Source: a virus
IMG/VR virus record: IMGVR_UViG_3300008262_000025
Location: 1-64,000 of that record
Strand: one strand, 5' to 3'
Length of the DNA stretch: 64,000 nucleotides
The notes below the pieces were generated by a model. The model was given only the letters and a program-made list of their open reading frames with translations. It did no database searches and was not told where the DNA came from. Positions 3 to 18,379 of this stretch are shown here, piece by piece. The position numbers were made by a program, and so were the translations under genes. Numbering within the stretch: the stretch's first letter is position 1; each line of letters begins with the position of its first letter.

Positions 3-3000
3 GAGGCTGATGATAAAACAGATTATGATTTTAAATATAGAGGTAATGGTCAACAACATAATAAGAACTTAGAGTTTTTAAATTCATTAGCAGATGAAGG
101 TACTGAAGAAGATGCTGATTTACAAACTGCAAAAACTGAGTTAGAAAAAGAATTAACTAAAAAAAGAGATGATTTAAAATCACAAATAAAATCAGAAACA
201 TTTAATCCTACTCCTTATGTAGAAGTAGATAAAGGTGATGGAAGTGGAAAACCAAAAATGATGCTTCTTGTACCTCAAGAAGAATTAGAAAATGCATTTA
301 AAGATTATGTAAAATCACAAATACCTTATTTAAAAGATGTAATTATTAAAGATATAAAACAAGGTATTATATCTTTTGATTTAATTTTTGAAAATGGATT
401 TACATTTGATAGAGGTGAATTTCCACTTGTAAAAGGTTCACTGGGTGGTATGATAGTTACTGATGCTAACTTATCAGAATATAAAGTAGCAATAGATTGG
501 ATTATTTCAGAAGAATATAAAGCAGAACTTGCAAAATTAGAACAAGAATCAAAAAAATCAGGTAAGTTAACTCAAACTCCAGTAGAATTTGGAGAAGAAA
601 TGTCCCCAACTGAAGGTATATGGTATAAATCTAAACCTGCATCTAATCATAATTCAATAGTTGAGTTTTATGATAACAATGAATTTTCAATAATTTTAGA
701 TGAAAAAGTTATTGGTAGAATTTTAAATATGGACCCAGGTATACTGATGTTCCCTATTATAAATGATGAAACAGGAGAAAGAATAGATAACCAAAATCCA
801 AGTGAAATTATAAGAAAAATGGTCAAGAACAAGTTAAAACTAAATCTATTGAAGAACAAAAAGCTGAGATAGAAAGAAGAAAAAAACTATCTGGATGGAT
901 TGCATCTTATGAATTAGCAAAAATTGCAAAAGAAGAAGGTGTTGATTTATCTAAATTATCTAGAGAAGAATATGCAGAATATGCTATTAAAAACTATTTA
1001 AAAATAGATGATACTCAACTTAGAACTAATCCAAAACATAGAAATGCTACAACTGTACAAGAAGTTGGAGATATTATAAAAGCAGATAGAGCTTCTTTAA
1101 CAGAAGAAACTAAAAAAGCATTTGATTCATTTTATAGAGCAATGATGGCTATTGTTAATAAGCCTCAAGCAGAAAGATATTTAGCTCAAAGTGTAAGATT
1201 ATATTCAGGTACTAAAGATTCTGATTCTTGGTTATATTTTGGCATAAATAATGGAACAAATACTAATGAAAATTTTACACATAAAAGTTATTTTTCATTA
1301 AAAGATCTTAATGATTTTTCTCCAGAAATGTTTAAAGACTTTATGATTGAACTTCAAAAAAGAGGTTATAATGGTGATGTTAAAATATTTCAAGATTTAG
1401 AAGTTCAAGGTCCATCATTAAGTGATCAAGTTGTAATGCATGGATATTCAGAAGCAGATGCTAAACTAGCATTAGAAGTAGCTAAAGAATTTTATGGAGA
1501 TAAAATATTAGAATCATCGTATGGTAAAGATGAAATTATAAATGGTAAAAGTAAATCTTATAGTCAAATACTTTCTGATAAAATTAAAAATGAAATTGAT
1601 TCTAAAAATGTTGATGAAGAATTAGCTGCATTAGAATCTCAATCTGAAGTAGATCAAGAATATCAAGACTTTATTAATGGTATTATTACTGGTGAACGTA
1701 TTAAATCAATAGGTGAAAAACTTGCTACTAATAGAACTAACGAATTAACTGATTTTGAAAATCAGATATTAAAAGATGAAAAAGGAAAACAATTAATAGA
1801 TGAATATTTAGCAAAAAGAAAACAAGCTGAAGATAAAAAAGAAAAGAAAAGTGAATATACCGCAAAAGAGTTTATACAAAAATATTTAAATTATGAATTT
1901 AAAGATGATAGTGGTAAAACATATAAATTAGAATTCTTAGATAAGTATTTAGATTTTCTTAAATTAGCAGATGCTAATAATACTATCATTAGAGTAATTA
2001 ACGATAAAAATCAACAAGGTAAAATCTTTGCTCAAGGTAATGTTATTACTATTAATGTTTATCATTTTAATGATCAATCTCAAAAACTTATTATTGATGA
2101 TAAAATATTAAGTGAATTATTTGTACATGAAACTATACATACATTTATTGGATCAAGTTTAAAAACTAATAATGCATTCTTTAATGAGATGAAAGGTTTT
2201 GTTTTAAGTATGGGTAATTCTAATGACTTAACAGAAGCTCTTGATGGTATTGCTGATAATATTAAAGCTCAAATTAGACAAGTTAATAAATTAGAAGATA
2301 GTCCAGAAAAAGTAAAAAAACTTAATATTTTAAAACGTGCATTAGAATCTATAAACTATTCTAAAAACACTATTCTTGATAAACTAAAAGAATATGAAAA
2401 AGATAAAGTTAAAATTTCTCCTGAGGCTGCTCTTAAAAACGCAGAGGCTTTAGGTCTAGAAGAGTTTATTGTTTTAGCTTTATCTGAACCTGAGTTTGCA
2501 TTTTATTTGAATACAGTGCCATCTGATAAAGCTACAGAGGATGGTCCTAGTATGTCTATGTGGCAAGTACTTAAAAAGATATTATTTAAAATACTTGATG
2601 CTGTATTAAATAATAAAAGTAGATTAGCAGAATTAAATAATATGCTTGATAGACATTTAGCTAAAACAGCTAAAGGTTTAGATTTAATTAATATTCAAGA
2701 ATATTTTGATTTAGGATACATACTTGATAAAGGTATATATACAATTAATATTGGTACAGAGGTTAGAGATATTGTAATTCTTGATATGGAAGGTGATAAT
2801 ATTATATATACTTTTCCTAATGTATTAAGTGATCCAAGAATAAAATATACAATGTCTAAAGAAGAGTTTTATAATAGTGATCCTGTATTAAATGAAAACT
2901 TTAGATTTGAAGAATTTATAAATCAATTAAATAATTTAGAACTTACACCTGATAACTTTCAAAAAGAATTTCAAAGATTAAAAGATCAAGTATTATATGA

Positions 3001-6000
3001 TCATCTATCTATAGATACTAAATCTAAAATTGATGAAATACTTGATAGTATACAAGAGCAAATTGAAGCTGATATTAAAGATGATAGATTAGATAATTTT
3101 GCTGATCAAATTGAAAAGAAAAAGTTAATATCAGAAATAGAAGGTATATTAAATAACGCATCTACTGAATTTGGTATTGATAGTGATCAGTTTAAAACTT
3201 TAAGCAGAAAAGCTTTACTTAGAATTAAAGAAATATCTGATAATGTAAATGATATTCAAAATGATAATTTTATTAAACTTGCTAAGTTAACTGAGTTTAG
3301 TGATTCTTTTAAACATATCTTTACAGAATTAGAAAATATAAAAGAGGTTTTAAATAATAAAATAATTGAAACTATAAAAGATAAGTTATCAAAAGAAACT
3401 AATTTAAATATGTTACTTCGCATAAGAAATAATTATTTAAAAGGAGTAAATAAATTAAAAGATGCTTTTAATAACGAAGCTAATAGATTAAAAACACAAT
3501 TAAATGATGATGATTATGAACTTCAGTTAATTATTAATTCTACTAATTTAGATAATATTGAAGAGAGATTAGAAAGAGAATTTATATCTAGATTGTCTGA
3601 TGATGATATTAAAAATACATCTGGTGTAAGATATGCTCAAATTATTAAAGATGGTAAAGTTAATAGATACTTATATACAATAAAAGGAATTACTGAAAAT
3701 GGTTATTTATTAGAAGATGGTAATAATAAAATATTAGAATTTTCATTTGATGAAGTAATTGATTTATCTGAAAAATCAGCTTATTATCAAGGGTATTCTA
3801 ATAAAGAAGAAATTTTTGATGAAGATTATGCTAGATCTATCTTATTTGATTCAGTAAAAATAAATAGTAAAACTTATATTAATGATCTTCTTAATCATAC
3901 AATTTTAAAAAATTTAACTGTATTAAGATTTCCTGATAATCCATATGATATTGCTAAATCAATAGCATTAATATTAAATAATATACCTAATGATATAATT
4001 GACCTTAATAATAAAAAGAATGATGATATTAAAAAATTACTTAAAGAATTAATTATTAAAGCTGCTGAAAAAACTGAATCTGGAAATTATAAATTAAATT
4101 CAGATCAAGTAGAAAAATTAGTTAAAGAACTTTCAGATAAGTTAATAAGAGATCCTCGTTTTGATAGAGAACTAAAACCTATTAGTGGTTCAAAATTATT
4201 TAGTTCATTCCTTAATAGTTTAAGTGAAGAACAAAGACAAAAGACTAACTTAGGAGGTAACATTAGAATTTCTGTTAATGTTTCAACTAGAGCTAATAAG
4301 CTTAAGGATAAAATGAAAAGTACATCTAAAGATAACATAGATGAAAAACTTAGACTAGGTTTAATTAAAGCTAATACTACTAAAAAAGAAGCATTTGAAA
4401 ATAATGAAGAAGTAATTGGTATTCATATGTGGGAGGACATCTCAGTTGATTATGAAATTAATGTAGCTAGAGAAGGTGCAAAACCAAACTGGGTTAGAAT
4501 AGGTAGTGCTAGAAATCCTTATGCTTATAAAGCAATTAAAAGAGGTATAGGTGGACTTAATTCAACTGAAGTAGTTAGGAGTCCAGCTCATATATATTTA
4601 GAATATAGTAAAGAAACTAATCAAGATGAAAAGAATAAACTTGTTGATGAGTTTAATAATTTATATTCTGTAAACAATCAACCTGTAGATAATGCTACAT
4701 TTGAAGCAATTGGTAAATCATGGTTAAAACAAAAGAAATTATATGATGCGTTAAGTAAAAAGTTTAAAGAACAAGGTGATAAAGGTTTTACTATTGAAGG
4801 TGAAGAGTTAAGTAACATAATGTCATTCTCATTTACTGGTGGTAATTTTGATTTTGTTAAAAGACCTGATTCAAGAAAAACATTAAATCAAATAGCTAAA
4901 GAAGATAATAATAATGTAGAGTTATTTAAAATAGAAACTGAAGATGGTGTAAGAGAATTTGCTGTTGTTGATTTAGGTGATACTAAAAAATCAGAAAAAA
5001 GTAGAAGAGATATTTATAATACTGTAGATGGTAAATCTATAGAAGGCGTTAGCCGTTATGACTATTTAGATATTAATCAAAAACAAAATTATGGTAGATA
5101 TTGGTTAGTAATGAAAGATGTTACTGGTCAACTTAGATTCTTATGGTTAAAACCTAGAAAAGCTAAAACTACTGATTTAAATAAATTTACTGATTCTATT
5201 AATAAAAGAGTTAATGAGTATAATGAAGGTAAAATAAACAAGAGTCAATTAGAAAACTTTGTTAGAGATGAATACAGAAAAAGTATTTATTTAGCATTAC
5301 CTGCTTTACCAGAACTTAATTCCATTAATACATTCTTAAATATTGAATTTAATAAAGATGGTAAAACTTTAAAAAAAGATAAAAATGGAGCATATGTATT
5401 TAATTTAAAAATAGATCCTCAAACTCCTAACTTAAGTCCAACTCCAAAAATGTTTGTTAATAATTTAAATTTAACAGATGGTTCATCATTTATAAGTAGT
5501 TTATTTACAAATAGTAAAATAGCGTTAAAGAATATTAATACTAATTTTATGGCTATTACTGAAGATAATATACGAATATCATTTGATCAATTTGAAGATA
5601 TGGATAAATCAAAGATTCAAGATTTTATAATGGATATATTTGAGATACCTGTTAATTCTAATATTTATAGTACTAATAGATTATTAACTAATATTTCTGA
5701 TGATATTACTTTAGAACAAGAACAAGAAGAAGAATTAGAATTTGAACAAGAGGAAGAAGATGATTTATTATCTAATTTAACTGAACAGGAAAAAGAACTC
5801 TATTATAATTTAATGCAAATTGATCCTTATGCAGCTAATATAATTAATGCAACTAAAGAAGATAATTTTATAACTAATGCTGGTAATATAACACCAGATA
5901 ACGTTAGTAAAAAATTAGGAATAAGTAAAGATCAAGCTAAAAGAAGTTTACAATTATTAGTAGATTCTGGATACTTAATTAAGAGTGGTAAGTATTACAA

Positions 6001-6376
6001 GTTAAATGAAAACTTTGGAATAGAAGAAGAATTTGAAGCTAAAGAAGATATAATTCCTGAAGAAGATTTAAGTTTAAACGAAATTAGAGAAAAACTTTTA
6101 AATTTAGAATCTGATAAATTTTTAGGTAGATCAGTTAGAGGTAAAATTAATGAACAAGAATATAAAGATTTAACTAGTAAACTTGCTAGTAATACTCAAG
6201 ATTCTGATTTACGTAATCAAGTTGTAGACTTATTACTTCAATATTATCAAGAAGGTAAGTATACAGAAATAATTGATAAATTATTAGATGATACTAAATT
6301 AGGTAAACTAACTAAAACTATAGAAGAGGATCCAGATTTAATACGTAAGAAATTAAAAGGTTGTCCTAAAGGTTAA
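3..6376 (+). CDS. Giant virion/ejection polyvalent protein, 5'-truncated by the window and split by a -1 frameshift at about 806-872 (joins ORFs 258..872 and 1142..6376)
   Basis: The frame of ORF 258 is open from position 3. The frame of ORF 1142 is open from 806 and reads NGQEQVKTKSIEEQKAEIERR...FYRAMM into the 1744-aa ORF. Zincin HETIH at 2126-2140 with downstream EEF; wHTH-like segment near 5880-6005; single Cys in the C-terminal GCPKG. Confidence 0.8.
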
Positions 6377-6381
6377 TAAAT

Positions 6382-6413
6382 AAAAAAGGGTAGATTTTTA
6401 GTCTACCCTTTTT
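6382..6413. terminator. Bidirectional intrinsic terminator between convergent giant genes
   Basis: Hairpin aaaaagggtagat...gtctacccttttt with A/T tracts on both sides, between stops at 6376 (+) and 6434 (-). Confidence 0.85.
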
Positions 6414-6433
6414 CTTTTTATAAAACCTAACTA

Positions 6434-9400
6434 TTAAAACGTTCTATTTAAATTCTTTGTCATTTCATCTAAGTTAGTTGCACTAGTAATATTACCAAAT
6501 AGTTTTAAACCTTTAGCATATAATTTGCTATCACCTTTTTTAAATATACCTTGCTCTTTTTCATATACTGCAAAAGGATCAGCAACTTGTGATAGAAAAC
6601 TATAAGCTCTATCTACAGTACCATTAAATGCAGTTGGACTTTTAAAAAGCTTCCAGTTATCACCAAAGAAACTAGGTACAGGAGCTAATGAACCAATTTC
6701 TTTTCTAAGTCTAGTAAGTTCATATAAAGCTAAAGCTCTAAATGCTGATACATCTTCATCATCTTCATCATCACCTATAGCTAATACAGCAACTAATAAT
6801 CCTAATAATAAATAAATACCTAATTCCATAGTTGCTCTTCTAACGTTAGCTTCTTCAAATGGTTGTAAACCTGTATCTTGTTTAGTACCACGGAAACTAT
6901 TCATAAACATTGTACTTAATTTTTTCCAATCAGTAAATAAGTAACTAAAAAATGTTATATAATAACCTTGTCTAATAACACCTACTTCTTCATTTCTATA
7001 AAGTTTACCCCATCTTCTTCTAGCCATAGGTACTAAGAACTTTCTATACATCATAAGTAATCTACCAAATACATTTCTTTGTATGTGAGTTTTATCAAAT
7101 GTAGCATAGTTACCTTGAAGATCTTTATTAATACCATGAAGTTTAGCTCTAATCTGCATATTCTTTTTACTTCTTAAAAAAGGAACACCATCTATATCTT
7201 TTATACCTTTTGCTATAACTTTACCATCAGCATCAAGTTCCATAGATGTTAATAAAGTATCTTTAATTTTATTAAATTCTACTTTTGCTTTTTTCTTTTC
7301 ATCATAAGTAAGTTCAGATCCTTTATCATTAGTTTTCTTTTGCATGTAATCTTCTATGCTATATACTTCACCATTAATAACTTTATAACTATTAAGTAAA
7401 GCATACATTGATGTAGCAGCAGCTTCAATTTCACCTATGTTATTATTAATAAACCAAGTACTTGATCTTAATGCTAAATTAAGTTTTGATGCAGTTAAAT
7501 CATTACCATATTCATCTTGGAATGTACCTTGTAAAGCATCATACATATCAAACAATTGACCTGATAAAGTTTCTCTTGATATCTTACCAAAATCTTTTAC
7601 CATATCCATAGTAAGTGATCCTATCTTATTACTACCATAATATACTAATTTTTTAGCATAACCCCAATCTTTAAGATTATAATGATCAGCGGCCCAACCT
7701 TCTAAGAATATTTGTGTATTAGCTTGTAAGTAGTTAGCAAAACCTTTAATCCAACCAGTAGATGTAATACCACCTATTTGAGCATACGATGCTGCAGTCA
7801 TAAGACCATCTAATAACTTATCTACTCTTACAGGCCCTACTACAGGAATGTTATAATTGATTTCATTATTCTGATCATCAAAGAATTGCATTTCAGTAAA
7901 TGATCTAAGTAATGCACCTTCATAAGTTTCACCTTCTTTGCGTACAAACTTTTCTATACCTAGTTTTTTAGCAACAGCATCGATCATTTTATTACCTTGT
8001 GCATCTCTTTCTATAGCACCACCTTCAGTTGATTTATCTCTTTTATTAATTAAATTTAAGATAGCTCTCATTTGAGGTAATATTTCACTCTTAGCTTTAA
8101 ATCTTTCTGCTTGTTGTATATAAGATAATATAGAGCTTACAACGTCTCTACTGACATTTTCTATATCAATGTGATATACATGTCTAAACGGAAGAGATCT
8201 ATTCTCTAATGATGTACTATAAGTTGCAGTACCTTCAATTAGTTGATCTTCATCTAAATCTATATCTTCACCAGATGTAGATAAATGTCTCATTATATTA
8301 TCATTTTCTATTTCTCTAGTAGCTTTATTTCCAAATTTAGTTTGCCACCAAGATCCAACTCTTTGTTTAAATTTACCTTCTATTAATTCTTCTCTACCAC
8401 TCTTATAAATATACGGTAATCTGTTACCTAATCTGTAAGCAGCAGGCATTTCTGCTTGTGCTTCTTTGTACTTTTTCATAATAACATTATAAAACTCTTT
8501 CCATTTAGGATCAAGTTGTTCATATTTAGAGTTTACCCATAAATGTTTTTTAGGTAACATATATCCTAATTGATCTGTGACTTTATCAAGATCAGTTCTA
8601 ATATATTCTTCTTTTATCTCTGGTGATTTATATAAATAATTAGGAAGTAATTTTACACCTTCAGTTAAAGTTTCATCAATTAATAAATATCCTGATTCTT
8701 TTTTTATTTCTTTATCTTCTTTGTGATTTTTTAAAAACCATTCTGTTTTTTCTAATTCAGCATTAAGAGCTTTATCGTTATAATTAGGATAGATTTGTTT
8801 AATCTTTTCTAATTCATTTTTTCTATCTATTTTGTAACGTTCAGAAATTTTATTAGTTTTATAAGTAGGTACTGTAGTCATCCATGCTCTAATAGGACTA
8901 TAAATAATTTCACCTTCTTTAGTATATTCAACATGATTATTTATATACCATTCAGATTCTTCAAAAAGTATACCATTACTTTCAGCCTTAGCTTGTTCTA
9001 ATTCATATCTTTTATAATATTCTGAATTAGGAACATATTCAACTATTTGATCAATAGCTTCATCAATACCATTTTTTATTTGAAAGAATAAATTCCAAGA
9101 TGGATCTTCTTGTCTTTGTTCACGTGTTACTTTATTAAGTAAGAATAGTTCATTTAATTCTTCTTCTAATTCTTTTAATCGAGCAATTACATCATTAGGT
9201 ATAACTTTAGTATCAACGTGAGTACCACCAAGTCTATATGGTTTTAATAAATCATTTATTTCTTCATTAATTTCATACTCATCATTTTTAGTATTATTTA
9301 ATTCATATTCTTCAAACCATGAATCTATTTTATTAGTAAATGTTTTAAAATTAATTACCTCATCACTTAATAACTTAATTTCATCCATTAAATCATAATC

Positions 9401-12400
9401 ATCATTATTCTTTGCATACTTAAGAACTTTTTTAAGTTTTCTTAAATATTTAACTTTATCAAATAATGAGTCATCTATTTTAACTTCAGTATTTTCTTCT
9501 AACCATAATAAATATTTATCTGGTTCTGTTTCAAATTTAAGTTTAGCTCTTCTTCTTTCATCTTCAAATCTTTCATAATTAACAACAAAACGATGTCTCT
9601 TATTATATTCTGTATTAAATTCTTGAATTCTAATTGCAATTTTTAAATCGTCACCTTCTTTTTTAATACCATCTTTATCATATATAGAACCTAATAATTT
9701 ATATTCAATATCTAATTCTCTTAAAGCTGCTAAGTCATCATCACTAAGTTCAATAGATCTATGCTTAACTCTATCTTTAATATTATCCATCATACTAATA
9801 ATTTCATCACGTCTCTTCTTAGCTTCTATACCAATTTCATCTTTAGTAAATAAATCATCCATTTTATAATAATCATCAATATTAGGACGTTCCATATTTT
9901 TATTTACCCAAGCTTTGTATTCTTTGTCAACTTTTCTAAATTCATCAAACTTTCCAGCTTCTTTAAGTTTTCTCATTCTATATTGATAATGCTTAATGAT
10001 ATTAGTATAAGTCATTTCGTCTTCAACAGTTTTTCCATCATCATTTACATAAGTAAATTTCTTTCTACCATATTCACTTACAAGATTTACTGTTTCAGCT
10101 AATATTAATTTACCTGTAACTGGATCTCTTACCCATTCTTTTACAGTTTCAAGTATAGGATCATAAAACTTTTGAGGGTTATCACCTTGATTAGGTAAAA
10201 AGTTAAACGCACTTTGATCAAATACAGCAGATGATAATTTCTTTGCTGCTTGTTGTATTTCAAGTGCAATATCTTTCATATTCCATTCTGCTTCAGTAAG
10301 ATGGAATTTTAACATCATAGCATAAGAAGATAATATACCACTACTAGTACTAATAGGAGCAGTAAGAAATCTTTCAATAAAACCAATATCTCTATTAAGT
10401 TGTTTAAAATCTCTAACTAATGTACCAGCATCTCTAACTAATGTATCTTTAAACCTCTCCATGTTCTTTTTATACCTATCTTTGTAATACTTTAATTGAG
10501 TTTTAAATTTATCATTACTAGGATTTTCTTTAATCTTTTTTTCTAAGTCTTTTATTTTCTGCTCATATTGAATTTGCTTACCTTTAATAAAATCATCTAC
10601 AGATTTATTTAAATTTTCATTTAAATACATCTCAAGATTATTACCAAGTAATCTTTCCATTTCATATTGATAACGTACATCAAGAAGTTTTTTCTTAATT
10701 TCTATAGCTGTCTCTAACTCTTTAAATGAATCCATTTTCTTAATTTCATTTAAATCTTTATCAGATGTTCCTTCTAATAAAGCATTCATTATTTCATCAA
10801 GAATATTATAATTCTCAGCTATTCTTCTTATATCTTCTATATCTCTAATAGCTTCACTAGATCCTATGTCTCCTTGATTATAACTATTAATAACTAATTC
10901 AAACTTATCATTAAGCCCTAACATATTTTCAGTACCATATAATTCAAGATAAGATGCATGTATAAAAGTATTTAAACTTCGTATTTTATCTAAATCTGAT
11001 ATGTCAGTTTTAAGTTTATTAATTTCAGTTTTTTGTTTATCTTGTTTTTTAGGATCTTTGTCTATAGATCTATTAATATCAGTTAATCTTTTTTCTAAAT
11101 AAATTTTAATATCATCAATTAATTTATTTATTCTTTGTTGTTTATTATCTAATAAAAGATCTACGTTAGCAAAATCTTCTTTTTCTTTTTTAACTTTTTC
11201 ATCACCAAACTTTGGATTATACTTAGATCTCATTCTTTCAAATGCTATTCTTTTAGCTTTATTATATACAAGAGCACCTTGATTACCAAATGGAGTATTA
11301 TAAAATGTTTTAATATTAATGCTGTAAGTCTTTTTAATTTTACCGTTTTCATCTAATGATGCTTCTATAGTTATTTTACCAGATGGTTGTTCATTTATTT
11401 TATAATCATTTACTTCTGATATTTCAAAGTGACCATCAATATATACTTCATTAACAATCTCACCTTTATCATTTTCATAACTATTTAAACCTACTTCAGG
11501 TACAGTAATAGGAATTAAGAATAAATCTTTAACTTCAAATCCTAATTCTTCTTCAAGTATTCTTTGATATAACATTAACTGTAAAGAATAACCTGCTTGT
11601 TTTTTTGAATTTAAACCAAATGTAAAATCTCTAACTATTTCATAATAAGGAGCTGCAGGTTTAGGTTCATAATGCATAGTTTTAAAGTCATAAATTTCTA
11701 CTTTACCTCTATATTCAGGGTCTACTGATTCATCATCTTCATAAATAACTAACATGTCTATTTGACCTGCTACGCTTACTTGTCTACTACCATCATTTAT
11801 ATCTAACATTTTATCAGTATGAACAAGTACTTCAGTAAGTATTCTACCTCCTCTTTCTTCAATCTGATTTTTCATTGAAACTATCTTATTATAAAAGTCT
11901 AAACTAGCATATAATCTATCAAGTTTCTTTTGATCTTCAGATAAAACAATAGCATCTTGTTTTTTTACTTTAGGTCTATCATTAAATCTAGGTAATAAAT
12001 TATCTTTACCAATTTTAGTTTCTAAATTGTTAATATCTTTTTCTAATTTTTTAATATCATTATTAACATCTATTGGATCTTTCTTTAATATCTTTTCAAT
12101 AAGTGAATGTACTTCAGTTCCTACTTCTCTTCTTACTTCTGAATTATATAAAACTTTAGTTAACTTATAAAATAATTCTTTATCAAAAGGTTCTTCTTGA
12201 ACAAGATTACCAAAAGCATCTTGAAAAGTAAAATTATCTGTTTCATTTTCTTCTCTATAAAAATTAAATCTATTATTTAATACAGCTGTAATAAAATCTT
12301 TTTTAGCAAGTTCAGTTAATGAATCAAACCAATCTTTACTTCTTTTATTACTTTGTATAATATATTTTATTAAATTCTCATCATCAAAATCTAAAAGATT

Positions 12401-15400
12401 ATGTTGTCTAACTATACCAGTAATTGAATGATCAAAATTTAAACCATTCTCTTTAATGTAATCATGTTTTCTTTGTGTAAGTTCAGCATGAATTGTTTTA
12501 CCATCAGGAGAACTATCAAACTTTACTTTAGATGCTCTATTCAATACTTTCTTTTCCATCTCTCCTGCTTCTTTTGTAACCTTACCAAACTTAATAACAT
12601 TTTCATTATTAAAATCTGTTGCTGTACTTAATATATCAAGAGATCTCTTATCAGCATTAGCAAGTGCTTGAGATACAATAGGATCTAAAAATAATAATAG
12701 ATTTTTATTCTTTACATTTTGAATTTGATTTAAATGTTCAAATGCAATATTTTCATAATCTATAGAATCTAATTTAGTTTTACTTTTTATAAATTTATAG
12801 TTATCAATAATATCTTTATTACCATAATTCTCCATCATAGTACCTAGCATATTATTGTTTCTAAGCAACCCTGAAGCTAATGTAATTAAAGGTACTACTT
12901 TAGTATCACCTGTAATCATAGATGGATTGTAGCTTAAAATACCGTTATTTAAAGACCATTCTTTATTAAGATTATAATCTTTTTTAAATTGAACTTTACT
13001 TTTAGATGATATATCATTCATAACATTTAAAGCAAATTCAATAGGTGAGTTATTTAACTTAATAGGTTTATTTATTAAAGGTATTTTTACTACATCAGGA
13101 TTAAGTACATGTGTTTCTGTATCAGACATAACTACATCATAACCAGCAGCTTTAGCTTTAGATATCTCAACAGGATTGACTTTATCAACCTTTTTAACTT
13201 TATTAGTTGCAATAAAGAATGGTTCAGTATTACCAGATACTTCATCTTTAAATACTAATGATTCCCTTGGTAGTTCATCTTCTTCATCATCAATAAAATC
13301 TCTAACTTTTTGAATGCTAAAATTATCTTCAGTTTTTAATAATTCTTTAAGATCAGTTTTAGTAACTTCAGGTAGATTTGATTCATTTACTCTCTTAGTT
13401 AAATCTTCTACAGATTCTGTTTGAGTAAGTTTACCTTTCTTAACATCTTCTGCTAATATAGCTTTAACTAAATTTAAATTATTAACTATACCGTTATTTG
13501 CAAATTCTAATATTCCTGTTTTAAGTAAGTCAAATAAATTATTAATTACTTCAGGATCTTCATCATAGTTTTGTAAATTAGTTAATAGAACTTTAGAATC
13601 TTCAAGATTTTCTATTGTACGTTCCACATTTGAAATATAATCATAAGCTTGTTCTAATATTTGAATTTTATCATAACCATCATTATAAGTATCTTTAATA
13701 ATTTTAATATTTTCTTCTGCTTCTTTTAATGTTATTTTATCATTATTTATTTCTTTATCTATATGAGTATTTAATTCTTCTATAGATATATTTTCAAAAT
13801 CATTTAAATAATATAAAGATTGATCTACTAATCCACTAATACCATTATCAAATTCATTAGGTGTTAATTTACCAAACTTAATAGTACTTAAATCTCTTTC
13901 AGGTGTAATTTCTACTTCATTCCATGTATTACCATGCTCATCTGTAATTACTACAGGATTATATCCTTGTTTTTTAAGGATATTAGTTACAGTATTCTCA
14001 TAGAAATTTATAGTACCTTGTATTTGTTTTTCTGTATTATCATAATGAGATTTATCTTTTTTTAATCTATATAAATCTTGTTGTCTTGCTTTATCAAAAG
14101 TTTCATCATTCTCAATTGCATCGTTAGGATAAAATGATTCAAGTACTCTCTGATAATCAACATAACCTTCTTGATCATTACCAATATATTGAGCTTGACC
14201 ACTAACGTCTTTTATAAAATCTGTTACTTTTAAATCAATTAAAAACTTTTCAACTTTATTAAACTCATTCATTTTATAGAAAATTTCTTTAAATTGCTCT
14301 ATAACAATTATAGTTTCACCAGTAGGAAATAAAACTTTTTTATATCCTTTCTTAGCACTATCTTGAAGTATAGATTTTAAAAAGAATGTAACCCAATTAT
14401 TGTTTTTGTTTAATAATTGAAGAAAGTTATTTTGAGAATCTTTCTTATAGTTATATAAAGTATCTTTTGGTATGATTACTAAAAAGTCATCATCCCAATC
14501 AGGTTGTTGATAATAATTAGTATCATCTTCATATAAAACACCATGATTGTGTTCAAAAGGTCTATCTTTAACGTAAGTTATATATTCTAATGCTAAACTT
14601 TCATCAAATAAAGGATCATCTATTTTAACAGTTTCTTTATAATCATTTAAATCTATTACAAATTTTCCATTAGAATTTATCTTATTGTTTGTAACAATAA
14701 TTTCTTTATCTTTAACTTTTTGAAAAAAAGACTGAAGTTCTAAAATACGACGAACTTGTTTATTAGAATCTTTATCATCATTACGAAACCAACCAATCAT
14801 GTCACCTCTTGATCTATTAAATTCATTATCATGATATTCTCCATCTTGAGAAATAACATTATTAATACTTGGTGTTCTAAATGTATTAATTTTATAATCA
14901 ATTCCACCAGGTGCTGTTAAATTAGAATAATCCTTTGTAATTTGTTGTTCATTATTTTCTTCAAATATATTTCTAGCATTAGTAAACTCTTGAGAATTAA
15001 TTGGTATAAGTTTACCAGTATTATTTTGCCAATCTTCAAATGATATTTTATAAAAGCCTTTATTAAAACTTATATTATGTATATACATGTAATCATTTAA
15101 TTTAAATGTAACATTACCAGATTTTATTGGCGATGCTGTACTACTAGTATTAACCTCTACAGTATACGTATATCTATTAACTAACTCCATTGCAATATTT
15201 TCTTGCAATGATAATTCATCAACATAATTATTAAACTCTAAATCTAATATTAACTTTTTCTGTTCTTTAGGAATCTGTAACTCAGTTAATATTTTATCTA
15301 AAGTCCAATTATTCTTTTCACCTTTTTTAAATACTTCATTAGCTTTATCTGATAACAATATATCAGTAGCTTTTAAAGAGTAAGCTACTTCAGGTGTATT

Positions 15401-18379
15401 TAAAGACTCAGAAGTTAACTTACCAAACTTTTGAGGTTGATCTTCTACAAAGTTTTTAAATCCTTTTATATCTTGTTCGGAACCTAATATATGAATTTGT
15501 TCTGGTTCAAATACTACAATTTGATTTTCCCCTACATCATAAGTTCTATTATTAGATTGCTTACCTCCTTTTAATAATAAACCATCTGCGTTTTCTTTTA
15601 AACTTGTAGAATTTTCATAGTTATCAAACCAATCTTTTACTGTTAGATTTTTTGGATTTTTTATATTAATAACTGCATGTTGAACTACGCCTTTGTTATT
15701 TTCAATATTCTTTTTTATTTTTTCTGCTTCTCTTTCAATTTGTTCGTCAGAAGCACCCATATCTTTATAATAAGCTATTTCTTTTTTTATCTGCTCTATT
15801 GAAGGATTTAAACCGTGTTTTTTTATAACATTTCTTATATTACCATCATCAAATTCATCTTCTGTATATTTAACGGTATAGATATTAGCAGCATTTTTAT
15901 CATCTGTAAAAAATATACCTAACTCTTTACTTTTTTGATTAGTTTGAATACCTGTATTACCTCTATAAACAATACCTTTAACTTTACTATCAGGAAATAT
16001 AGTATCAAGATATTGAGAGTATTGTTGTTGAGCTTCTTGTTTATTACTATCAAATGATGATTTTTTAGTATCAAAATTTTCTAAATTATTTAAAGTGTCA
16101 TTGATAACATCTTCAAGTAAAGTATTCTTTGCTTCAATTCCTATAAGATTTCTTATTAAATTTAAAATGTCATCCCATAATGTTTTACCTTTAGATTTAT
16201 CAGATGGAATATCTTTTAAAATATCTCTAAATAAAGGTTCTGTAAAAACAGCAGCTAAAAATTCATCATTATCAGAAGTTTCATAACTCCAATCAAAAGA
16301 ATATATTTTATTATTAAATTCTTTAGATTTTTCTATTTTTTTAATAACTTTTTCTCTATAAGAATTAATTAAATTATAAAAATTTTTATCTCCAAATTCA
16401 CTTTTTGCTAATGTATTTCTTGTTAAAGCATGAATTGATTCATGTAATAAAGTTCTTGTTTTTTCATTAAAATTTTGATTAGGAGAAACAATTATTCTAT
16501 TAAAATATTCATTATACGTACCAATAACACCTGATTTTATTTCTTTATAATATACTTTAGTTGGATAATTTTTTAATTTATTTTTAATTAAATTAGCAAG
16601 TTCTTTATATTTATAATAAAATTCACTTGATTCATTTTTTTCTAATTCTTCATTAGACATTTGTAAAATTTTATCAAGCTCATCATTTAATAATGTATAT
16701 TTATCATCTTTTGTAATTTTAATATCTTCTTCAATATTTAAAATTTTATACACAGTATTAGCTAACTCAAGATTAGATTCAAATAGTTCTGGTACACCTT
16801 CTTTTATTTGAGTTAATTTACCTTTCTTAATATCTTCTTCATTAAAAGGTATAAATCTATTATAATCCCAAATATCTTTAAATCTACTATATCTTAATTT
16901 AGCTTCAAATGGAGCTTCAAATTTAGATAAACTAACATTATATTTATTACCATCACTACCAACAAAAGGATATTTTATAATACCTCTTTCAGATTCATCA
17001 TTACTAAAGAAGTCAACTAACATTGCTTCTTCACCTTCTTTATCTTCGTCTTCATTTATAGTTTTACCAGTATCAGATATATCAAATTTTAATTTATAAC
17101 TACCTTTTTTTTCATTAGTTTCATTATCAACAACAGTATAACCTATAATCTTACCTGTTTCTCTTCTTTCAATATTAGTAATTCTAAATCCTGCAGGTGG
17201 AATTAAATAAGTATCTACTTGATATTTATCAAAAAATGAATATGCTTTTATAGAATCAGGATAATAATATTTAACTAAATCATCTATTTCTGCTTGTGAA
17301 TAACCACCATTAACAAAATCTAAATCATGAACAACAGTTTCTATTTTTCTATATACTGTACCTTGTGTAGAGTATGCTATTGATCCTGTTAATGTAATGT
17401 TAGGTATAGTACCTATCTTAGTCATTATATCTTTAGCAATAGAATTTTCATCAAATGCTGTTTGAAAATCTACTTGTTTATATCCATCTTTTTTAGTTAA
17501 TCTAATAAAGTCATTACCTTTAAATGTATTTTCTACTATAGTATTTATTTGAGTTTTAATCTTACTATAGTCTGCACCTTTTAAAGAGTTAATAAGATTA
17601 TTAATAAACTCTTTAATTCTATCAAGTAAAGACTTTGATACATTTAATTCTTCAGCTAATTTCTCTGAAAAACCACTTTCTAATAATTCTTTAAATATTT
17701 CTTTTGTAGCAAGTCTATTTAAATTTCTTTTAGTAGAATCTCCATATTCTTCTTCTAGTTCTTTTACTCTTTTTTTAAATCTATCCGTTTTTCTTACTTC
17801 TCTTTCTATATCATAGAAGTAATCAGAATAACTTAACATTTCTGATAATGGTTCTGCCATTGCTTTAGATACTTGTTCTACACTTGATGTATCTAAACTT
17901 ATACTTTTAGCTGCAAGATTTATTATTAAATTTTCAGATTCGTTTACTTCAAATCCAAACGATTGTAAAAAGTTTAATAACTTAGCTTGAGGTTCATTTT
18001 CATCTAAAGTTAATTTACCAAACTTTTTATTATTATCAATTGACCTTTTAATTTTATCATCATTAATAAAACTATCTAATGCAGTTTTAAATGGTTTAAC
18101 ACTATTAGCATCTTGTAGATACATTAACTTAGGTTCAAAATTGTTATCTACAAAAGGAGATACTTTAGAATAAGATGCTCGTGCAGCATTATATTCAAAT
18201 GAATCTTTAGTATAAAGTTTTAATTCTTTAGATGCACTTTCCCAGTTTCCAAATTCATTTGAAAATTCAGGAGTTCTTACTTTATACCATATTTCTTTTG
18301 CTTTTCGTTCTCCATATAAAGATTTAAGTTCTTCATATAAATTACTTGTTTGCCCGTTAGGAGCATAAAAACATGCCAT
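6434..18379 (-). CDS. Giant (3981 aa) crAss-like ejection/polyvalent protein: NTase, zincin, ART-like, PD-(D/E)XK nuclease and C-terminal TM region
   Basis: N-terminal APNG..S.L...VRT..F..FGNWE leader; GS + HDLDFV NTase motif; HESIH zincin; VYRG/GIFFT/INIKNP/QIVVFEPEQI ART-like motifs; GTEVH..AGQID..DFKT..QL..Y nuclease; hydrophobic LGIYLLLGLLVAVLAIG followed by an acidic run near the C-terminus; adjacent to the vRNAP gene. Confidence 0.85.
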   Translation of the reverse strand: MACFYAPNGQTSNLYEELKSLYGERKAKEIWYKVRTPEFSNEFGNWESASKELKLYTKDSFEYNAARASYSKVSPFVDNNFEPKLMYLQDANSVKPFKTALDSFINDDKIKRSIDNNKKFGKLTLDENEPQAKLLNFLQSFGFEVNESENLIINLAAKSISLDTSSVEQVSKAMAEPLSEMLSYSDYFYDIEREVRKTDRFKKRVKELEEEYGDSTKRNLNRLATKEIFKELLESGFSEKLAEELNVSKSLLDRIKEFINNLINSLKGADYSKIKTQINTIVENTFKGNDFIRLTKKDGYKQVDFQTAFDENSIAKDIMTKIGTIPNITLTGSIAYSTQGTVYRKIETVVHDLDFVNGGYSQAEIDDLVKYYYPDSIKAYSFFDKYQVDTYLIPPAGFRITNIERRETGKIIGYTVVDNETNEKKGSYKLKFDISDTGKTINEDEDKEGEEAMLVDFFSNDESERGIIKYPFVGSDGNKYNVSLSKFEAPFEAKLRYSRFKDIWDYNRFIPFNEEDIKKGKLTQIKEGVPELFESNLELANTVYKILNIEEDIKITKDDKYTLLNDELDKILQMSNEELEKNESSEFYYKYKELANLIKNKLKNYPTKVYYKEIKSGVIGTYNEYFNRIIVSPNQNFNEKTRTLLHESIHALTRNTLAKSEFGDKNFYNLINSYREKVIKKIEKSKEFNNKIYSFDWSYETSDNDEFLAAVFTEPLFRDILKDIPSDKSKGKTLWDDILNLIRNLIGIEAKNTLLEDVINDTLNNLENFDTKKSSFDSNKQEAQQQYSQYLDTIFPDSKVKGIVYRGNTGIQTNQKSKELGIFFTDDKNAANIYTVKYTEDEFDDGNIRNVIKKHGLNPSIEQIKKEIAYYKDMGASDEQIEREAEKIKKNIENNKGVVQHAVINIKNPKNLTVKDWFDNYENSTSLKENADGLLLKGGKQSNNRTYDVGENQIVVFEPEQIHILGSEQDIKGFKNFVEDQPQKFGKLTSESLNTPEVAYSLKATDILLSDKANEVFKKGEKNNWTLDKILTELQIPKEQKKLILDLEFNNYVDELSLQENIAMELVNRYTYTVEVNTSSTASPIKSGNVTFKLNDYMYIHNISFNKGFYKISFEDWQNNTGKLIPINSQEFTNARNIFEENNEQQITKDYSNLTAPGGIDYKINTFRTPSINNVISQDGEYHDNEFNRSRGDMIGWFRNDDKDSNKQVRRILELQSFFQKVKDKEIIVTNNKINSNGKFVIDLNDYKETVKIDDPLFDESLALEYITYVKDRPFEHNHGVLYEDDTNYYQQPDWDDDFLVIIPKDTLYNYKKDSQNNFLQLLNKNNNWVTFFLKSILQDSAKKGYKKVLFPTGETIIVIEQFKEIFYKMNEFNKVEKFLIDLKVTDFIKDVSGQAQYIGNDQEGYVDYQRVLESFYPNDAIENDETFDKARQQDLYRLKKDKSHYDNTEKQIQGTINFYENTVTNILKKQGYNPVVITDEHGNTWNEVEITPERDLSTIKFGKLTPNEFDNGISGLVDQSLYYLNDFENISIEELNTHIDKEINNDKITLKEAEENIKIIKDTYNDGYDKIQILEQAYDYISNVERTIENLEDSKVLLTNLQNYDEDPEVINNLFDLLKTGILEFANNGIVNNLNLVKAILAEDVKKGKLTQTESVEDLTKRVNESNLPEVTKTDLKELLKTEDNFSIQKVRDFIDDEEDELPRESLVFKDEVSGNTEPFFIATNKVKKVDKVNPVEISKAKAAGYDVVMSDTETHVLNPDVVKIPLINKPIKLNNSPIEFALNVMNDISSKSKVQFKKDYNLNKEWSLNNGILSYNPSMITGDTKVVPLITLASGLLRNNNMLGTMMENYGNKDIIDNYKFIKSKTKLDSIDYENIAFEHLNQIQNVKNKNLLLFLDPIVSQALANADKRSLDILSTATDFNNENVIKFGKVTKEAGEMEKKVLNRASKVKFDSSPDGKTIHAELTQRKHDYIKENGLNFDHSITGIVRQHNLLDFDDENLIKYIIQSNKRSKDWFDSLTELAKKDFITAVLNNRFNFYREENETDNFTFQDAFGNLVQEEPFDKELFYKLTKVLYNSEVRREVGTEVHSLIEKILKKDPIDVNNDIKKLEKDINNLETKIGKDNLLPRFNDRPKVKKQDAIVLSEDQKKLDRLYASLDFYNKIVSMKNQIEERGGRILTEVLVHTDKMLDINDGSRQVSVAGQIDMLVIYEDDESVDPEYRGKVEIYDFKTMHYEPKPAAPYYEIVRDFTFGLNSKKQAGYSLQLMLYQRILEEELGFEVKDLFLIPITVPEVGLNSYENDKGEIVNEVYIDGHFEISEVNDYKINEQPSGKITIEASLDENGKIKKTYSINIKTFYNTPFGNQGALVYNKAKRIAFERMRSKYNPKFGDEKVKKEKEDFANVDLLLDNKQQRINKLIDDIKIYLEKRLTDINRSIDKDPKKQDKQKTEINKLKTDISDLDKIRSLNTFIHASYLELYGTENMLGLNDKFELVINSYNQGDIGSSEAIRDIEDIRRIAENYNILDEIMNALLEGTSDKDLNEIKKMDSFKELETAIEIKKKLLDVRYQYEMERLLGNNLEMYLNENLNKSVDDFIKGKQIQYEQKIKDLEKKIKENPSNDKFKTQLKYYKDRYKKNMERFKDTLVRDAGTLVRDFKQLNRDIGFIERFLTAPISTSSGILSSYAMMLKFHLTEAEWNMKDIALEIQQAAKKLSSAVFDQSAFNFLPNQGDNPQKFYDPILETVKEWVRDPVTGKLILAETVNLVSEYGRKKFTYVNDDGKTVEDEMTYTNIIKHYQYRMRKLKEAGKFDEFRKVDKEYKAWVNKNMERPNIDDYYKMDDLFTKDEIGIEAKKRRDEIISMMDNIKDRVKHRSIELSDDDLAALRELDIEYKLLGSIYDKDGIKKEGDDLKIAIRIQEFNTEYNKRHRFVVNYERFEDERRRAKLKFETEPDKYLLWLEENTEVKIDDSLFDKVKYLRKLKKVLKYAKNNDDYDLMDEIKLLSDEVINFKTFTNKIDSWFEEYELNNTKNDEYEINEEINDLLKPYRLGGTHVDTKVIPNDVIARLKELEEELNELFLLNKVTREQRQEDPSWNLFFQIKNGIDEAIDQIVEYVPNSEYYKRYELEQAKAESNGILFEESEWYINNHVEYTKEGEIIYSPIRAWMTTVPTYKTNKISERYKIDRKNELEKIKQIYPNYNDKALNAELEKTEWFLKNHKEDKEIKKESGYLLIDETLTEGVKLLPNYLYKSPEIKEEYIRTDLDKVTDQLGYMLPKKHLWVNSKYEQLDPKWKEFYNVIMKKYKEAQAEMPAAYRLGNRLPYIYKSGREELIEGKFKQRVGSWWQTKFGNKATREIENDNIMRHLSTSGEDIDLDEDQLIEGTATYSTSLENRSLPFRHVYHIDIENVSRDVVSSILSYIQQAERFKAKSEILPQMRAILNLINKRDKSTEGGAIERDAQGNKMIDAVAKKLGIEKFVRKEGETYEGALLRSFTEMQFFDDQNNEINYNIPVVGPVRVDKLLDGLMTAASYAQIGGITSTGWIKGFANYLQANTQIFLEGWAADHYNLKDWGYAKKLVYYGSNKIGSLTMDMVKDFGKISRETLSGQLFDMYDALQGTFQDEYGNDLTASKLNLALRSSTWFINNNIGEIEAAATSMYALLNSYKVINGEVYSIEDYMQKKTNDKGSELTYDEKKKAKVEFNKIKDTLLTSMELDADGKVIAKGIKDIDGVPFLRSKKNMQIRAKLHGINKDLQGNYATFDKTHIQRNVFGRLLMMYRKFLVPMARRRWGKLYRNEEVGVIRQGYYITFFSYLFTDWKKLSTMFMNSFRGTKQDTGLQPFEEANVRRATMELGIYLLLGLLVAVLAIGDDEDDEDVSAFRALALYELTRLRKEIGSLAPVPSFFGDNWKLFKSPTAFNGTVDRAYSFLSQVADPFAVYEKEQGIFKKGDSKLYAKGLKLFGNITSATNLDEMTKNLNRTF

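What the first reader, a model, noticed from the sequence alone, without database searches (positions are those of the whole stretch)
555..18025. Recurrent K-x-G-K-L-T motif marks module boundaries in two giant proteins (candidate processing site)
Seen: nine copies. Giant-1: KSGKLT 555-572, KLAKLT 3275-3292, KLGKLT 6296-6313. Giant-3: KFGKLT 18008-18025, KKGKLT 16811-16828, KFGKLT 15413-15430, KFGKLT 13862-13879, KKGKLT 13424-13441, KFGKVT 12575-12592. In giant-3 they fall between recognisable domains (leader | NTase | zincin+ART | ELQS domain | helical | degenerate | nuclease). Codons vary synonymously (aag/aaa, tta/cta/ctt), so conservation is at protein level and this is not a DNA repeat. 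No exact copy was noticed in the RNAP. Established: large polyvalent phage proteins carry zincin peptidases proposed to self-process. Each giant here has a HExxH zincin. Inference: the motif is a cleavage site that releases individual effectors, or a capsid/portal docking peptide.
Basis: partly seen in the sequence, partly recalled or inferred. Interest (0 to 1): 0.8.

Follow-up and report, generated by a model that had tools for sequence, protein, structure and literature searches.

The report
Junction peptide code in phage giant proteins
Giant multi-enzyme proteins of an uncultured freshwater phage are joined by one short peptide (Lys-x-Gly-Lys-Leu-Thr) that related phages spell differently at the same joints, which most likely marks where a phage protease cuts them, though no cut has been shown.

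Summary
All nine copies are at the stated coordinates. The motif is far above chance. G3 (3981 aa) has 6 copies against 0.03 expected. No 5-of-6 hexamer reached 5 copies in 300 shuffles. Nothing else in 28,151 residues of the contig resembles it. One correction: KSGKLT 555-572 lies in ORF A, a different frame from G1.

In G3 the copies sit at the edges of units that homologs carry independently. Copies 1 and 2 lie in low-confidence linkers flanking a confidently folded nucleotidyltransferase-like domain.

The closest relatives (P0002, P0003) read K-x-G-R-M-T at the same joints. A 37%-identical fragment (P0082) keeps KLGKLT. One module is 88-89% identical between lineages, yet each lineage keeps its own spelling beside it.

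Best reading (0.5): a recognition and cleavage site for a co-evolving phage protease acting in trans. Cleavage is not shown and the enzyme is not identified. The record is about 53% complete and lacks the head genes.

This scan has noted the same kind of junction peptide in at least eight other phage genomes. I found no printed description.

The parts
3..872 (+). ORF A: C-terminal 289 aa of a protein cut by the contig start; holds copy KSGKLT (aa 185). Its last ~20 aa look out of frame.
806..872 (+). Overlap of ORF A (frame 3) with the open G1 frame (frame 2): apparent -1 frameshift or 1-nt indel joining A to G1.
   Evidence: P0046 and P0047 align to frame 2 from nt 860 and 848 at 88% and 82%. 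Not resolved.
1142..6376 (+). G1, 1744 aa from the first ATG. Orthologs P0044 and P0045 are about 3000 aa. Zincin motif HETIH at nt 2126-2140 is invariant in the 3 orthologs.
555..572 (+). Copy KSGKLT (ORF A aa 185). P0044 has KSGKLT at a junction with unrelated flanks.
3275..3292 (+). Copy KLAKLT (G1 aa 712). Flanks are invariant in orthologs, so it may lie inside a folded region.
6296..6313 (+). Copy KLGKLT (G1 aa 1719), 20 residues before the C-terminus. P0044 has KFGKLT and P0045 has KLGKMT at the same place.
6434..18379 (-). G3, 3981 aa polyvalent protein: 6 modules (aa 1-1929) strung on a conserved 2046-aa C-terminal part.
18026..18379 (-). M1 leader, aa 1-118 (begins MAC.YAPNG). It is 67% identical to aa 1-118 of P0002 and P0003, and the same opening is seen in P0053 and P0082.
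18008..18025 (-). Copy 1, KFGKLT (aa 119). P0082 has KLGKLT at the same joint. AlphaFold pLDDT is below 50 over aa 111-126.
16829..18007 (-). M2, aa 125-517: pol-beta-type nucleotidyltransferase-like domain (G-S...D-L-D at aa 332-354). It folds confidently over aa 130-510.
16811..16828 (-). Copy 2, KKGKLT (aa 518). P0082 has KLGKLT at the same joint. pLDDT is below 50 over aa 511-539.
15431..16810 (-). M3, aa 524-983: HESIH (nt 16430-16444, weak DUF6782 match) plus an ART-PolyVal-like domain (aa ~780-983).
15413..15430 (-). Copy 3, KFGKLT (aa 984). P0002 has KEGRMT at the homologous joint.
13880..15412 (-). M4, aa 990-1500: the most widespread domain of these giants. It is 88-89% identical to the P0002 and P0003 module although the backbone is only 54-55% identical.
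13862..13879 (-). Copy 4, KFGKLT (aa 1501). P0002 and P0003 have KLGRMT here. In AlphaFold model 1 the confident block ends at about aa 1500.
13442..13861 (-). M5, aa 1507-1646, helical. It is homologous (37%) to P0002 module 2, which sits at a different position in the chain.
13424..13441 (-). Copy 5, KKGKLT (aa 1647). P0002 and P0003 have KFGRMT; P0053 reads VFLEAT in the aligned linker.
12593..13423 (-). M6, aa 1653-1929, 47-48% identical to the P0002 and P0003 module.
12575..12592 (-). Copy 6, KFGKVT (aa 1930). P0002 and P0003 have KFTRMT. One contig of run X9 reads KFGKLT.
6437..12574 (-). M7, aa 1936-3981: conserved carrier part with a sub-threshold PD-(D/E)XK match and, near the C-terminus, a conserved hydrophobic stretch followed by an acidic cluster. 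No motif copy.
18460..32181 (-). G2, 4573 aa, no motif copy. It has HEAFH at nt 30946-30960 and a cpYpsA SLOG domain (E 3.8e-12). RNA polymerase identity not confirmed.

Best explanation
G3, and probably the ORF A/G1 protein, are phage polyvalent proteins built as polyproteins. A conserved N-terminal leader and a string of exchangeable enzyme modules (nucleotidyltransferase-like, zincin plus ADP-ribosyltransferase-like, and others) are attached to a conserved carrier part.

The hexapeptide K-x-G-K-L-T usually follows an acidic stretch and Ile. It is the recognition site of one phage-encoded reader acting in trans, most likely an endopeptidase that cuts the chain into leader, modules and carrier. 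The cut could happen in the head or after ejection.

Shown: the motif's enrichment, its place at module borders, its restriction to three proteins, its conservation at 37% identity, and its concerted respelling (K-L to R-M) in a sister lineage.

Inferred: My guess for the bond, between K/R and L/M, rests only on the recalled preference of thermolysin-type zincins for a hydrophobic P1' residue.
For: (1) Enrichment and exclusivity: 9 sites and nothing similar in the other 86 ORFs or in G2.

(2) Module borders: 56 of 112 BLAST alignment endpoints of distant homologs fall within 10 aa of a copy, against 8.7 expected. P0002 and P0003 rows were dropped, and many endpoints belong to the one module M4, so they are not independent. 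M2 occurs at four different positions in other giants, and each alignment stops 5-8 aa from a copy. AlphaFold model 2 (pLDDT 71) puts copies 1 and 2 in segments below 50 on either side of a confident domain.

(3) Concerted dialect: all 6 P0002 copies and all 4 P0003 copies read K-x-[GT]-R-M-T, at joints homologous to G3 copies 3-6.

(4) M4 is 88-89% identical between the lineages while the backbone is 54-55% identical, yet the flanking motif keeps the resident spelling.

(5) P0082, 37% identical over M1-M2, keeps KLGKLT at both joints.

(6) The same spelling is used in two or three different proteins of one genome. It is kept 20-25 aa from the C-terminus in the G1 orthologs, as a removable tail would be.

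(7) P0002 and P0003 differ by two modules (358 aa) that lie exactly between motif copies.

(8) Precedent: Iyer et al. 2017 proposed peptidase processing of polyvalent proteins. SPN3US gp245 cuts head and ejection proteins at a short AXE motif and removes targeting propeptides.
Against: No cleavage data of any kind exist.

No protease could be tied to the motif. No S78, S77, S49 or ClpP match and no MPTase-PolyVal match was found in the 89.5-kb record, which is only about 53% complete.

P0002 and P0003 have no HExxH. P0053, an ortholog at 35%, lacks the motif.

Several domain borders have no motif: aa ~775-787, inside M4, and all of M7.

K-to-R and L-to-M are conservative changes that one enzyme might tolerate. 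P0045 mixes KLAKLT and KLGKMT, so the dialects are not sharply separated.

G1 copy 712 has invariant flanks and may be buried.

AlphaFold model 1, which covers copies 3-5, is poor (pLDDT 48).

Virion packaging of G3 and G1 is assumed, not shown.
Confidence: 0.5

Rival explanations
1. The motif is a short linear binding peptide and is not cut. Each copy docks the chain to a partner such as the capsid interior, portal, a chaperone or DNA, to pack or thread the giant protein.
For: It fits a shared reader that co-evolves, exposed linkers, and the basic K-x-G-K core after an acidic stretch. According to the passage of Iyer et al. read, N4 virion RNAP is packaged unprocessed.
Against: Six copies placed precisely at module borders, plus one 20 aa from a C-terminus, are not needed for docking. 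The modules are unrelated enzymes that would more plausibly act separately. G2, the other giant beside them, has none.
Confidence: 0.17
2. The motif is a recombination junction. A short repeated DNA or peptide seam lets modules be inserted, deleted and swapped, and its copies are kept alike by gene conversion. No protein reads it.
For: The P0002/P0003 indel lies exactly between identical KEGRMT copies. Module order is shuffled and M4 has been exchanged. The rare AAG codon is used at the first Lys in 6 of 6 G3 copies (P about 0.002 after context correction, post hoc), as shared descent would give.
Against: At most about 12 contiguous identical bases are shared. Codons for Leu, Thr and Lys vary, and position 2 is TTT or AAA. 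ORF A and G1 copies use other codons. The M4 exchange left different spellings on its flanks. The peptide is kept at 37% identity.
Confidence: 0.12
3. The motif is cut or bound by a host factor, for example a host endopeptidase met after ejection, and the dialects reflect different hosts.
For: No phage protease was found. P0002 and P0003 lack a zincin.
Against: Nothing links the motif to any host enzyme. The record is incomplete, so absence of a phage protease means little. The host is unknown.
Confidence: 0.1
4. It is a passive structural linker, such as a helix cap or hinge, that happens to suit these proteins and has no reader.
For: It lies in linkers. P0053 has alignable linkers without the motif.
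Against: Passive linkers do not usually keep five of six residues at 37% identity, nor change the same two residues at every copy in a sister lineage. Of the 43 giants, 34 have no recurrent hexamer.
Confidence: 0.08

Closest known systems
Polyvalent proteins of phages and conjugative elements (Iyer, Burroughs, Anand, de Souza, Aravind 2017, PMC5512222; I read the abstract and 12 passages)
   Same: Many unrelated enzyme domains sit in one phage polypeptide, including a zincin and an ADP-ribosyltransferase of the PolyVal type. Delivery with the DNA and peptidase processing were proposed there.
   Different: In the passages shown, that paper names peptidase domains but no cleavage-site motif, and the word 'linker' occurs 0 times in its text. 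Here there is a defined junction hexapeptide with lineage-specific spelling. Relatives that carry the motif have no zincin in the same chain.
Prohead-protease maturation at a short consensus motif: SPN3US gp245, AXE (PMC10052503, passages read). T4 gp21 and phiKZ gp175 are recalled, not checked here.
   Same: One phage protease cuts many head and ejection proteins at a 3-residue motif, removes N-terminal targeting propeptides of 20-254 aa, and makes multiple cuts in one substrate.
   Different: Those motifs end in Glu. The substrates are mostly single proteins losing a propeptide, not chains of enzymes. Here no protease gene, no head genes and no cleavage data are available.
T4 internal proteins with a capsid targeting sequence (recalled; T4 propeptide targeting is mentioned in PMC10052503)
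   Same: A conserved N-terminal leader is followed by a cut site ahead of an injected effector. This matches G3 M1 followed by copy 1.
   Different: The T4 proteins are small single-effector proteins. Here one leader would serve about six effectors.
Junction-peptide 'dialects' noted earlier by this scan in other uncultured phages (e1-6042468, e1-5644693, e1-5958162, e1-6119661, e1-6095550, e1-5359355, e1-6117468, e1-3505003)
   Same: Giant modular phage proteins are punctuated by one short linker peptide, and related phages use another peptide at the same joints. Those notes also read it as a cleavage code.
   Different: The peptide, the DNA and the protein family are different. Those are unchecked AI notes that I did not test.

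Membership tests
Polyvalent proteins (Iyer et al. 2017) | Several unrelated effector or enzyme domains in one polypeptide of a phage or conjugative element | tested here: met
   M2 is a pol-beta nucleotidyltransferase-like fold: Foldseek probability 0.93-0.99 to JHP933 and MenT3, but E > 0.001 and TM 0.27-0.34, plus G-S...D-L-D. M3 has HESIH and an ART-like domain. M7 has a sub-threshold PD-(D/E)XK match. Modules occur independently in other giants.
Polyvalent proteins (Iyer et al. 2017) | Signature Pfam domains (ART-PolyVal, MPTase-PolyVal, LPD families) | tested here: inconclusive
   ART-PolyVal scores 16.7 bits against a cut-off of 31.2. Homologs P0079 and P0081, 70-73% identical over G3 aa ~786-983, carry precomputed PF18760. 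PF18818 had no match in the record. LPD38 and LPD39 appear only as low-share atlas leads. G2 has cpYpsA at E 3.8e-12.
Polyvalent proteins (Iyer et al. 2017) | Packaged in the virion and delivered with the DNA | not testable with these tools
   No proteomics are available. The head module is missing from the 53%-complete record.
Prohead-protease substrates (T4 gp21 / phiKZ gp175 / SPN3US gp245 type) | A prohead protease gene in the genome | tested here: inconclusive
   Peptidase_S78, S77, S49 and CLP_protease gave 0 matches in G000, but the record is a fragment without structural genes.
Prohead-protease substrates (T4 gp21 / phiKZ gp175 / SPN3US gp245 type) | The same motif at maturation sites of capsid, portal, scaffold and the protease itself | not testable with these tools
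   Those genes are not in the record.
Prohead-protease substrates (T4 gp21 / phiKZ gp175 / SPN3US gp245 type) | Cleavage at the motif shown by mass spectrometry | not testable with these tools
   This needs an experiment.
N4-like (Schitoviridae-type) phage with a giant virion RNA polymerase | G2 is a virion RNA polymerase | tested here: not met
   No PHROG, Pfam or PDB-sequence match to any RNA polymerase. Only the AAA ATPase at 51929-53380 resembles N4-like phage proteins, at 34-37% identity. Divergence could hide the polymerase.

The most novel reading that the evidence does not exclude
Double-stranded DNA phages run a true polyprotein system. A lineage-specific junction code (here K-x-G-K-L-T, with K-x-G-R-M-T in the sister lineage) is read by a co-evolving phage protease. 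Any enzyme cassette dropped between two junctions is then automatically released as a separate effector. The same seams also serve as the break points for swapping cassettes between phages.
Probability: 0.4. Interest if true: 0.75.

Novelty: new variant of a known kind. Interest (0 to 1): 0.6.

Why it matters
Peptidase processing of phage polyvalent proteins has been a hypothesis since 2017, without named sites. This locus gives nine exact candidate sites, a sister spelling for cross-specificity tests, and module boundaries for at least six uncharacterised effector domains.

If the junctions are cut, giant phage ORFs should be annotated as several proteins. The protease and its site would be a co-evolving pair that can be followed across phage lineages.

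The earlier notes of this scan suggest the principle recurs with different peptides in many uncultured phages.

Tried and rejected
Pfam and PHROGs on the whole giants gave nothing. Pfam on single modules gave only sub-threshold hits. PDB sequence searches with G2, G3 and the G1 profile found nothing useful. A phage-record tblastn with G3 aa 1-2000 found no match.

I therefore could not test whether the G1 ortholog of the R-M-T lineage also uses R-M-T. I also could not look for the motif in head proteins or check synonymous variation in relatives.

AlphaFold model 1 (G3 aa 771-1660) was poor (pLDDT 48) and is used only as weak support.

Read laying gave fragmented metagenome contigs. None listed bridges nt 806-821, so the ORF A/G1 frameshift stays open. 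Parts without cover, the habitat labels of low-share runs, and depth peaks are not used as evidence.

Ideas rejected:
- Walker-A-like reading of G-K-L-T. The spacing is wrong, and a real Walker A sits in the ATPase.
- An internal start or Shine-Dalgarno signal. There is no in-frame start after the copies.
- A promoter-like TAACTTTG element. It fits one copy only, by eye.

Supplements of the papers were not opened. The architecture tables of Iyer et al. 2017 might bear on whether junction motifs were noticed there. The statement that the motif is not in print rests and the passages only.
Full report
SETTING. The window is the first 64 kb of an 89.5-kb linear virus record. CheckV estimates the record at 53% complete, and it has no recognisable head genes. 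GC content is about 25%. Replication genes and an AAA ATPase that is 34-37% identical to proteins of N4-like phages lie on the minus strand.

Four large ORFs meet at a convergent point near nt 6400:
- ORF A (3..872 +), cut by the contig start.
- G1 (1142..6376 +), 1744 aa.
- G3 (6434..18379 -), 3981 aa.
- G2 (18460..32181 -), 4573 aa.

OBSERVATION. All nine hexapeptides are at the stated coordinates. From composition, G3 should hold 0.03 copies of K.[GA]K[LV]T and holds 6. G1 should hold 0.011 and holds 2. ORF A should hold 0.002 and holds 1. G2 should hold 0.029 and holds 0.

Without fixing the motif in advance, K.GKLT is the only recurrent 5-of-6 hexamer in G3, with 5 copies. In 300 shuffles of G3 the maximum was 3.

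Of 43 giant homologs, 2 reach five copies (G3 itself and P0002), and 9 have any pattern with three or more copies.

A loose pattern over all 159 ORFs of 50 aa or more in the contig finds the nine copies plus one weak look-alike, KEAKVT in ORF 70528-72363. A profile scan shows a gap from 32-37 bits for the nine training sites to 11.6 bits for that look-alike, and 7.4 or less for everything else.

One correction is needed. KSGKLT at 555-572 is in ORF A (frame 3), not in G1 (frame 2). The G1 frame is open from nt 806, and relatives align to it from nt 848-860. The orthologs are single proteins of about 3000 aa. ORF A and G1 are therefore probably one gene interrupted by a -1 shift. Whether that shift is real or an assembly error I could not tell.

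THE COPIES LIE AT MODULE BORDERS. G3 residues 125-511 form a domain that recurs at positions 447, 1744 and 3075 of three other giant proteins, and at 1763 of P0004. Every alignment stops 5-8 residues from copies 1 and 2.

G3 aa 993/998 to 1491/1510 is the most widespread domain in these giants, with about 35 homologs. It fills the space between copies 3 and 4. The ART-like domain ends at aa 980-985, just before copy 3.

After dropping the collinear orthologs P0002 and P0003, 56 of 112 alignment endpoints in the first 2000 residues lie within 10 aa of a copy, against 8.7 expected for uniform placement. Many of these endpoints belong to M4, so they are not independent.

AlphaFold with 14 sequences gave a usable model of aa 1-560 (mean pLDDT 71). 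A confident domain spans aa 130-510. The only low-confidence internal stretches next to it are 111-126 and 511-539, which hold copies 1 and 2.

A second model of aa 771-1660 was poor (mean pLDDT 48). Its one long confident block ends at about aa 1500, and copies 3-5 lie in segments below 50.

Foldseek places M2 weakly with pol-beta-type nucleotidyltransferases: JHP933 and MenT3 at probability 0.93-0.99, but E > 0.001. M2 also has a G-S...D-L-D signature (I recall that this pattern is the nucleotidyltransferase signature).

Pfam gives only sub-threshold zincin (DUF6782), ART-PolyVal and PD-(D/E)XK matches. However, 70-73% identical homologs of the ART region carry PF18760.

Against a simple 'every border' rule, domain borders at aa ~775-787, inside M4, and throughout the C-terminal 2046 residues have no motif.

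COMPARATIVE EVIDENCE. This is the core result. The closest relatives, P0002 (4296 aa) and P0003 (3938 aa), share the leader and the C-terminal 2046-aa part at 54-55% identity. They have 6 and 4 copies of K-x-[GT]-R-M-T: KEGRMT, KLGRMT, KFGRMT and KFTRMT. These copies sit at joints homologous to G3 copies 3, 4, 5 and 6. Two residues have therefore changed in the same way at every copy.

Module M4 is 88-89% identical between G3 and P0002/P0003, far above the backbone, which points to a recent cassette exchange. Yet the motif on its flanks is KFGKLT in one lineage and KEGRMT/KLGRMT in the other.

G3 module 5 is homologous to P0002 module 2, at a different place in the chain. P0002 and P0003 differ by two modules (358 aa) lying exactly between KEGRMT copies.

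P0082 is a 662-aa fragment with the same leader and only 37% overall identity. It has KLGKLT at both joints that correspond to G3 copies 1 and 2.

The G1 orthologs keep the motif as well. P0044 (70% identity) has KSGKLT, KFSKLT and KFGKLT. P0045 (48%) has KLAKLT and KLGKMT. In each, one copy lies 20-25 residues before the C-terminus.

Results that limit the claim:
- P0053, a 35% ortholog with the same leader, has alignable linkers without the motif (VFLEAT, RFKGAGR).
- Six proteins with M2 at 58-69% identity but other leaders have no motif.
- P0045 mixes L and M.

The wider context of 22 non-redundant sites is acidic at -4 to -2 (Asp at -2 in 9 of 22) and Ile at -1 in 12 of 22.

WHO READS IT. 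Each giant here has one HExxH, and the one in G1 is invariant in its orthologs. P0002 and P0003 have none, so a zincin in the same chain cannot be the general reader.

No S78, S77, S49, ClpP or MPTase-PolyVal match exists in the record. The record is a fragment, so this means little.

G2 has no copy. That would fit an enzyme or cargo that stays whole. Its identity as an RNA polymerase found no support; it does contain a cpYpsA SLOG domain.

INTERPRETATION. Several facts point to one shared, co-evolving reader rather than a passive linker:
- a hexapeptide limited to two or three proteins;
- placement in exposed linkers at the borders of exchangeable units;
- conservation at 37% identity;
- respelling at all copies in a sister lineage;
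- retention of the resident spelling around an exchanged cassette.

An endopeptidase is the most economical reader. Two things favour it: the C-terminal copy that would free a 20-residue tail, and the leader-plus-site layout, which recalls propeptide removal by prohead proteases (SPN3US gp245). I put this reading at 0.5.

The rivals are docking without cleavage (0.17), a recombination seam homogenised by conversion (0.12), a host factor (0.1) and a passive linker (0.08).

One odd point is that the rare AAG codon is over-used in the motif. It is used at the first Lys in 6 of 6 G3 copies and at the fourth Lys in 4 of 9 copies, against a background of 13-17%. The usage depends partly on context (41% before Phe). 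After correction P is about 0.002 and 0.02, post hoc. This leaves room for a DNA-level or decoding-level component.

One contig of run X9 reads copy 6 as KFGKLT while three of the next ten residues differ. It is a single contig, near its end.

COMPARISON AND NOVELTY. The proteins fit the concept of polyvalent proteins (Iyer et al. 2017). In the passages I read, that paper proposes processing by peptidase domains but names no site, and the word 'linker' does not occur in its text.

Short-motif cleavage by one phage protease is established for giant myophages, with different motifs and different substrates.

My searches found no paper that describes junction motifs in such proteins.

Within this scan the same kind of finding, with other peptides on other DNA, was noted at least eight times. 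I did not test those notes.

I class this as a new variant of a known kind: real and well supported as a co-varying junction code, with the mechanism still inferred.

Noticed in passing
window 806-872 (+): ORF A (frame 3) and the G1 frame (frame 2) overlap here. Relatives align to frame 2 from nt 848-860, and orthologs are single ~3000-aa proteins. This looks like a -1 frameshift or a 1-nt indel in an A-rich stretch.
   Followed up: partly
window 18290-18379 (-) and the N-termini of P0002, P0003, P0053, P0082, P0004, P0073-P0077: The giants start with Met-Ala/Ser, then a Cys within 3-5 residues, often followed by Pro-Asn (MAC.YAPNG in the G3 group).
   Followed up: no
window 12575-18025 (-), motif codons: The rare Lys codon AAG is over-used inside the motif: 6 of 6 at the first Lys in G3 and 4 of 9 at the fourth Lys, against a 13-17% background.
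   Followed up: partly
window 6437-7000 (-) and the C-termini of P0002, P0003, P0004 and others: A conserved C-terminal block carries a hydrophobic, membrane-span-like stretch followed by an acidic run (G-D-D-E-D-D-E-D type). It is shared by many otherwise different giants and could be a common carrier or ejection module.
   Followed up: no
P0006 aa 242-256, 474-488, 1681-1695: A distant giant homolog repeats a different 12-15-residue peptide (I-N-A-K-Y-D-A-E-L-K type) three times between unrelated parts. This may be another junction peptide.
   Followed up: no
window 13880-15412 (-): Module M4 is 88-89% identical to the module in P0002 and P0003 while the rest of the protein is 37-67% identical. 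This points to a recent cassette transfer between phage lineages.
   Followed up: yes
window 25560-26010 (-), G2 aa ~2057-2208: G2 contains a circularly permuted YpsA SLOG domain (Pfam E 3.8e-12), and P0004 carries the same family. No RNA polymerase signature was found in G2.
   Followed up: partly
window 12540-12600, run X9: A diverged strain contig changes copy 6 from KFGKVT to KFGKLT and alters three nearby residues.
   Followed up: partly
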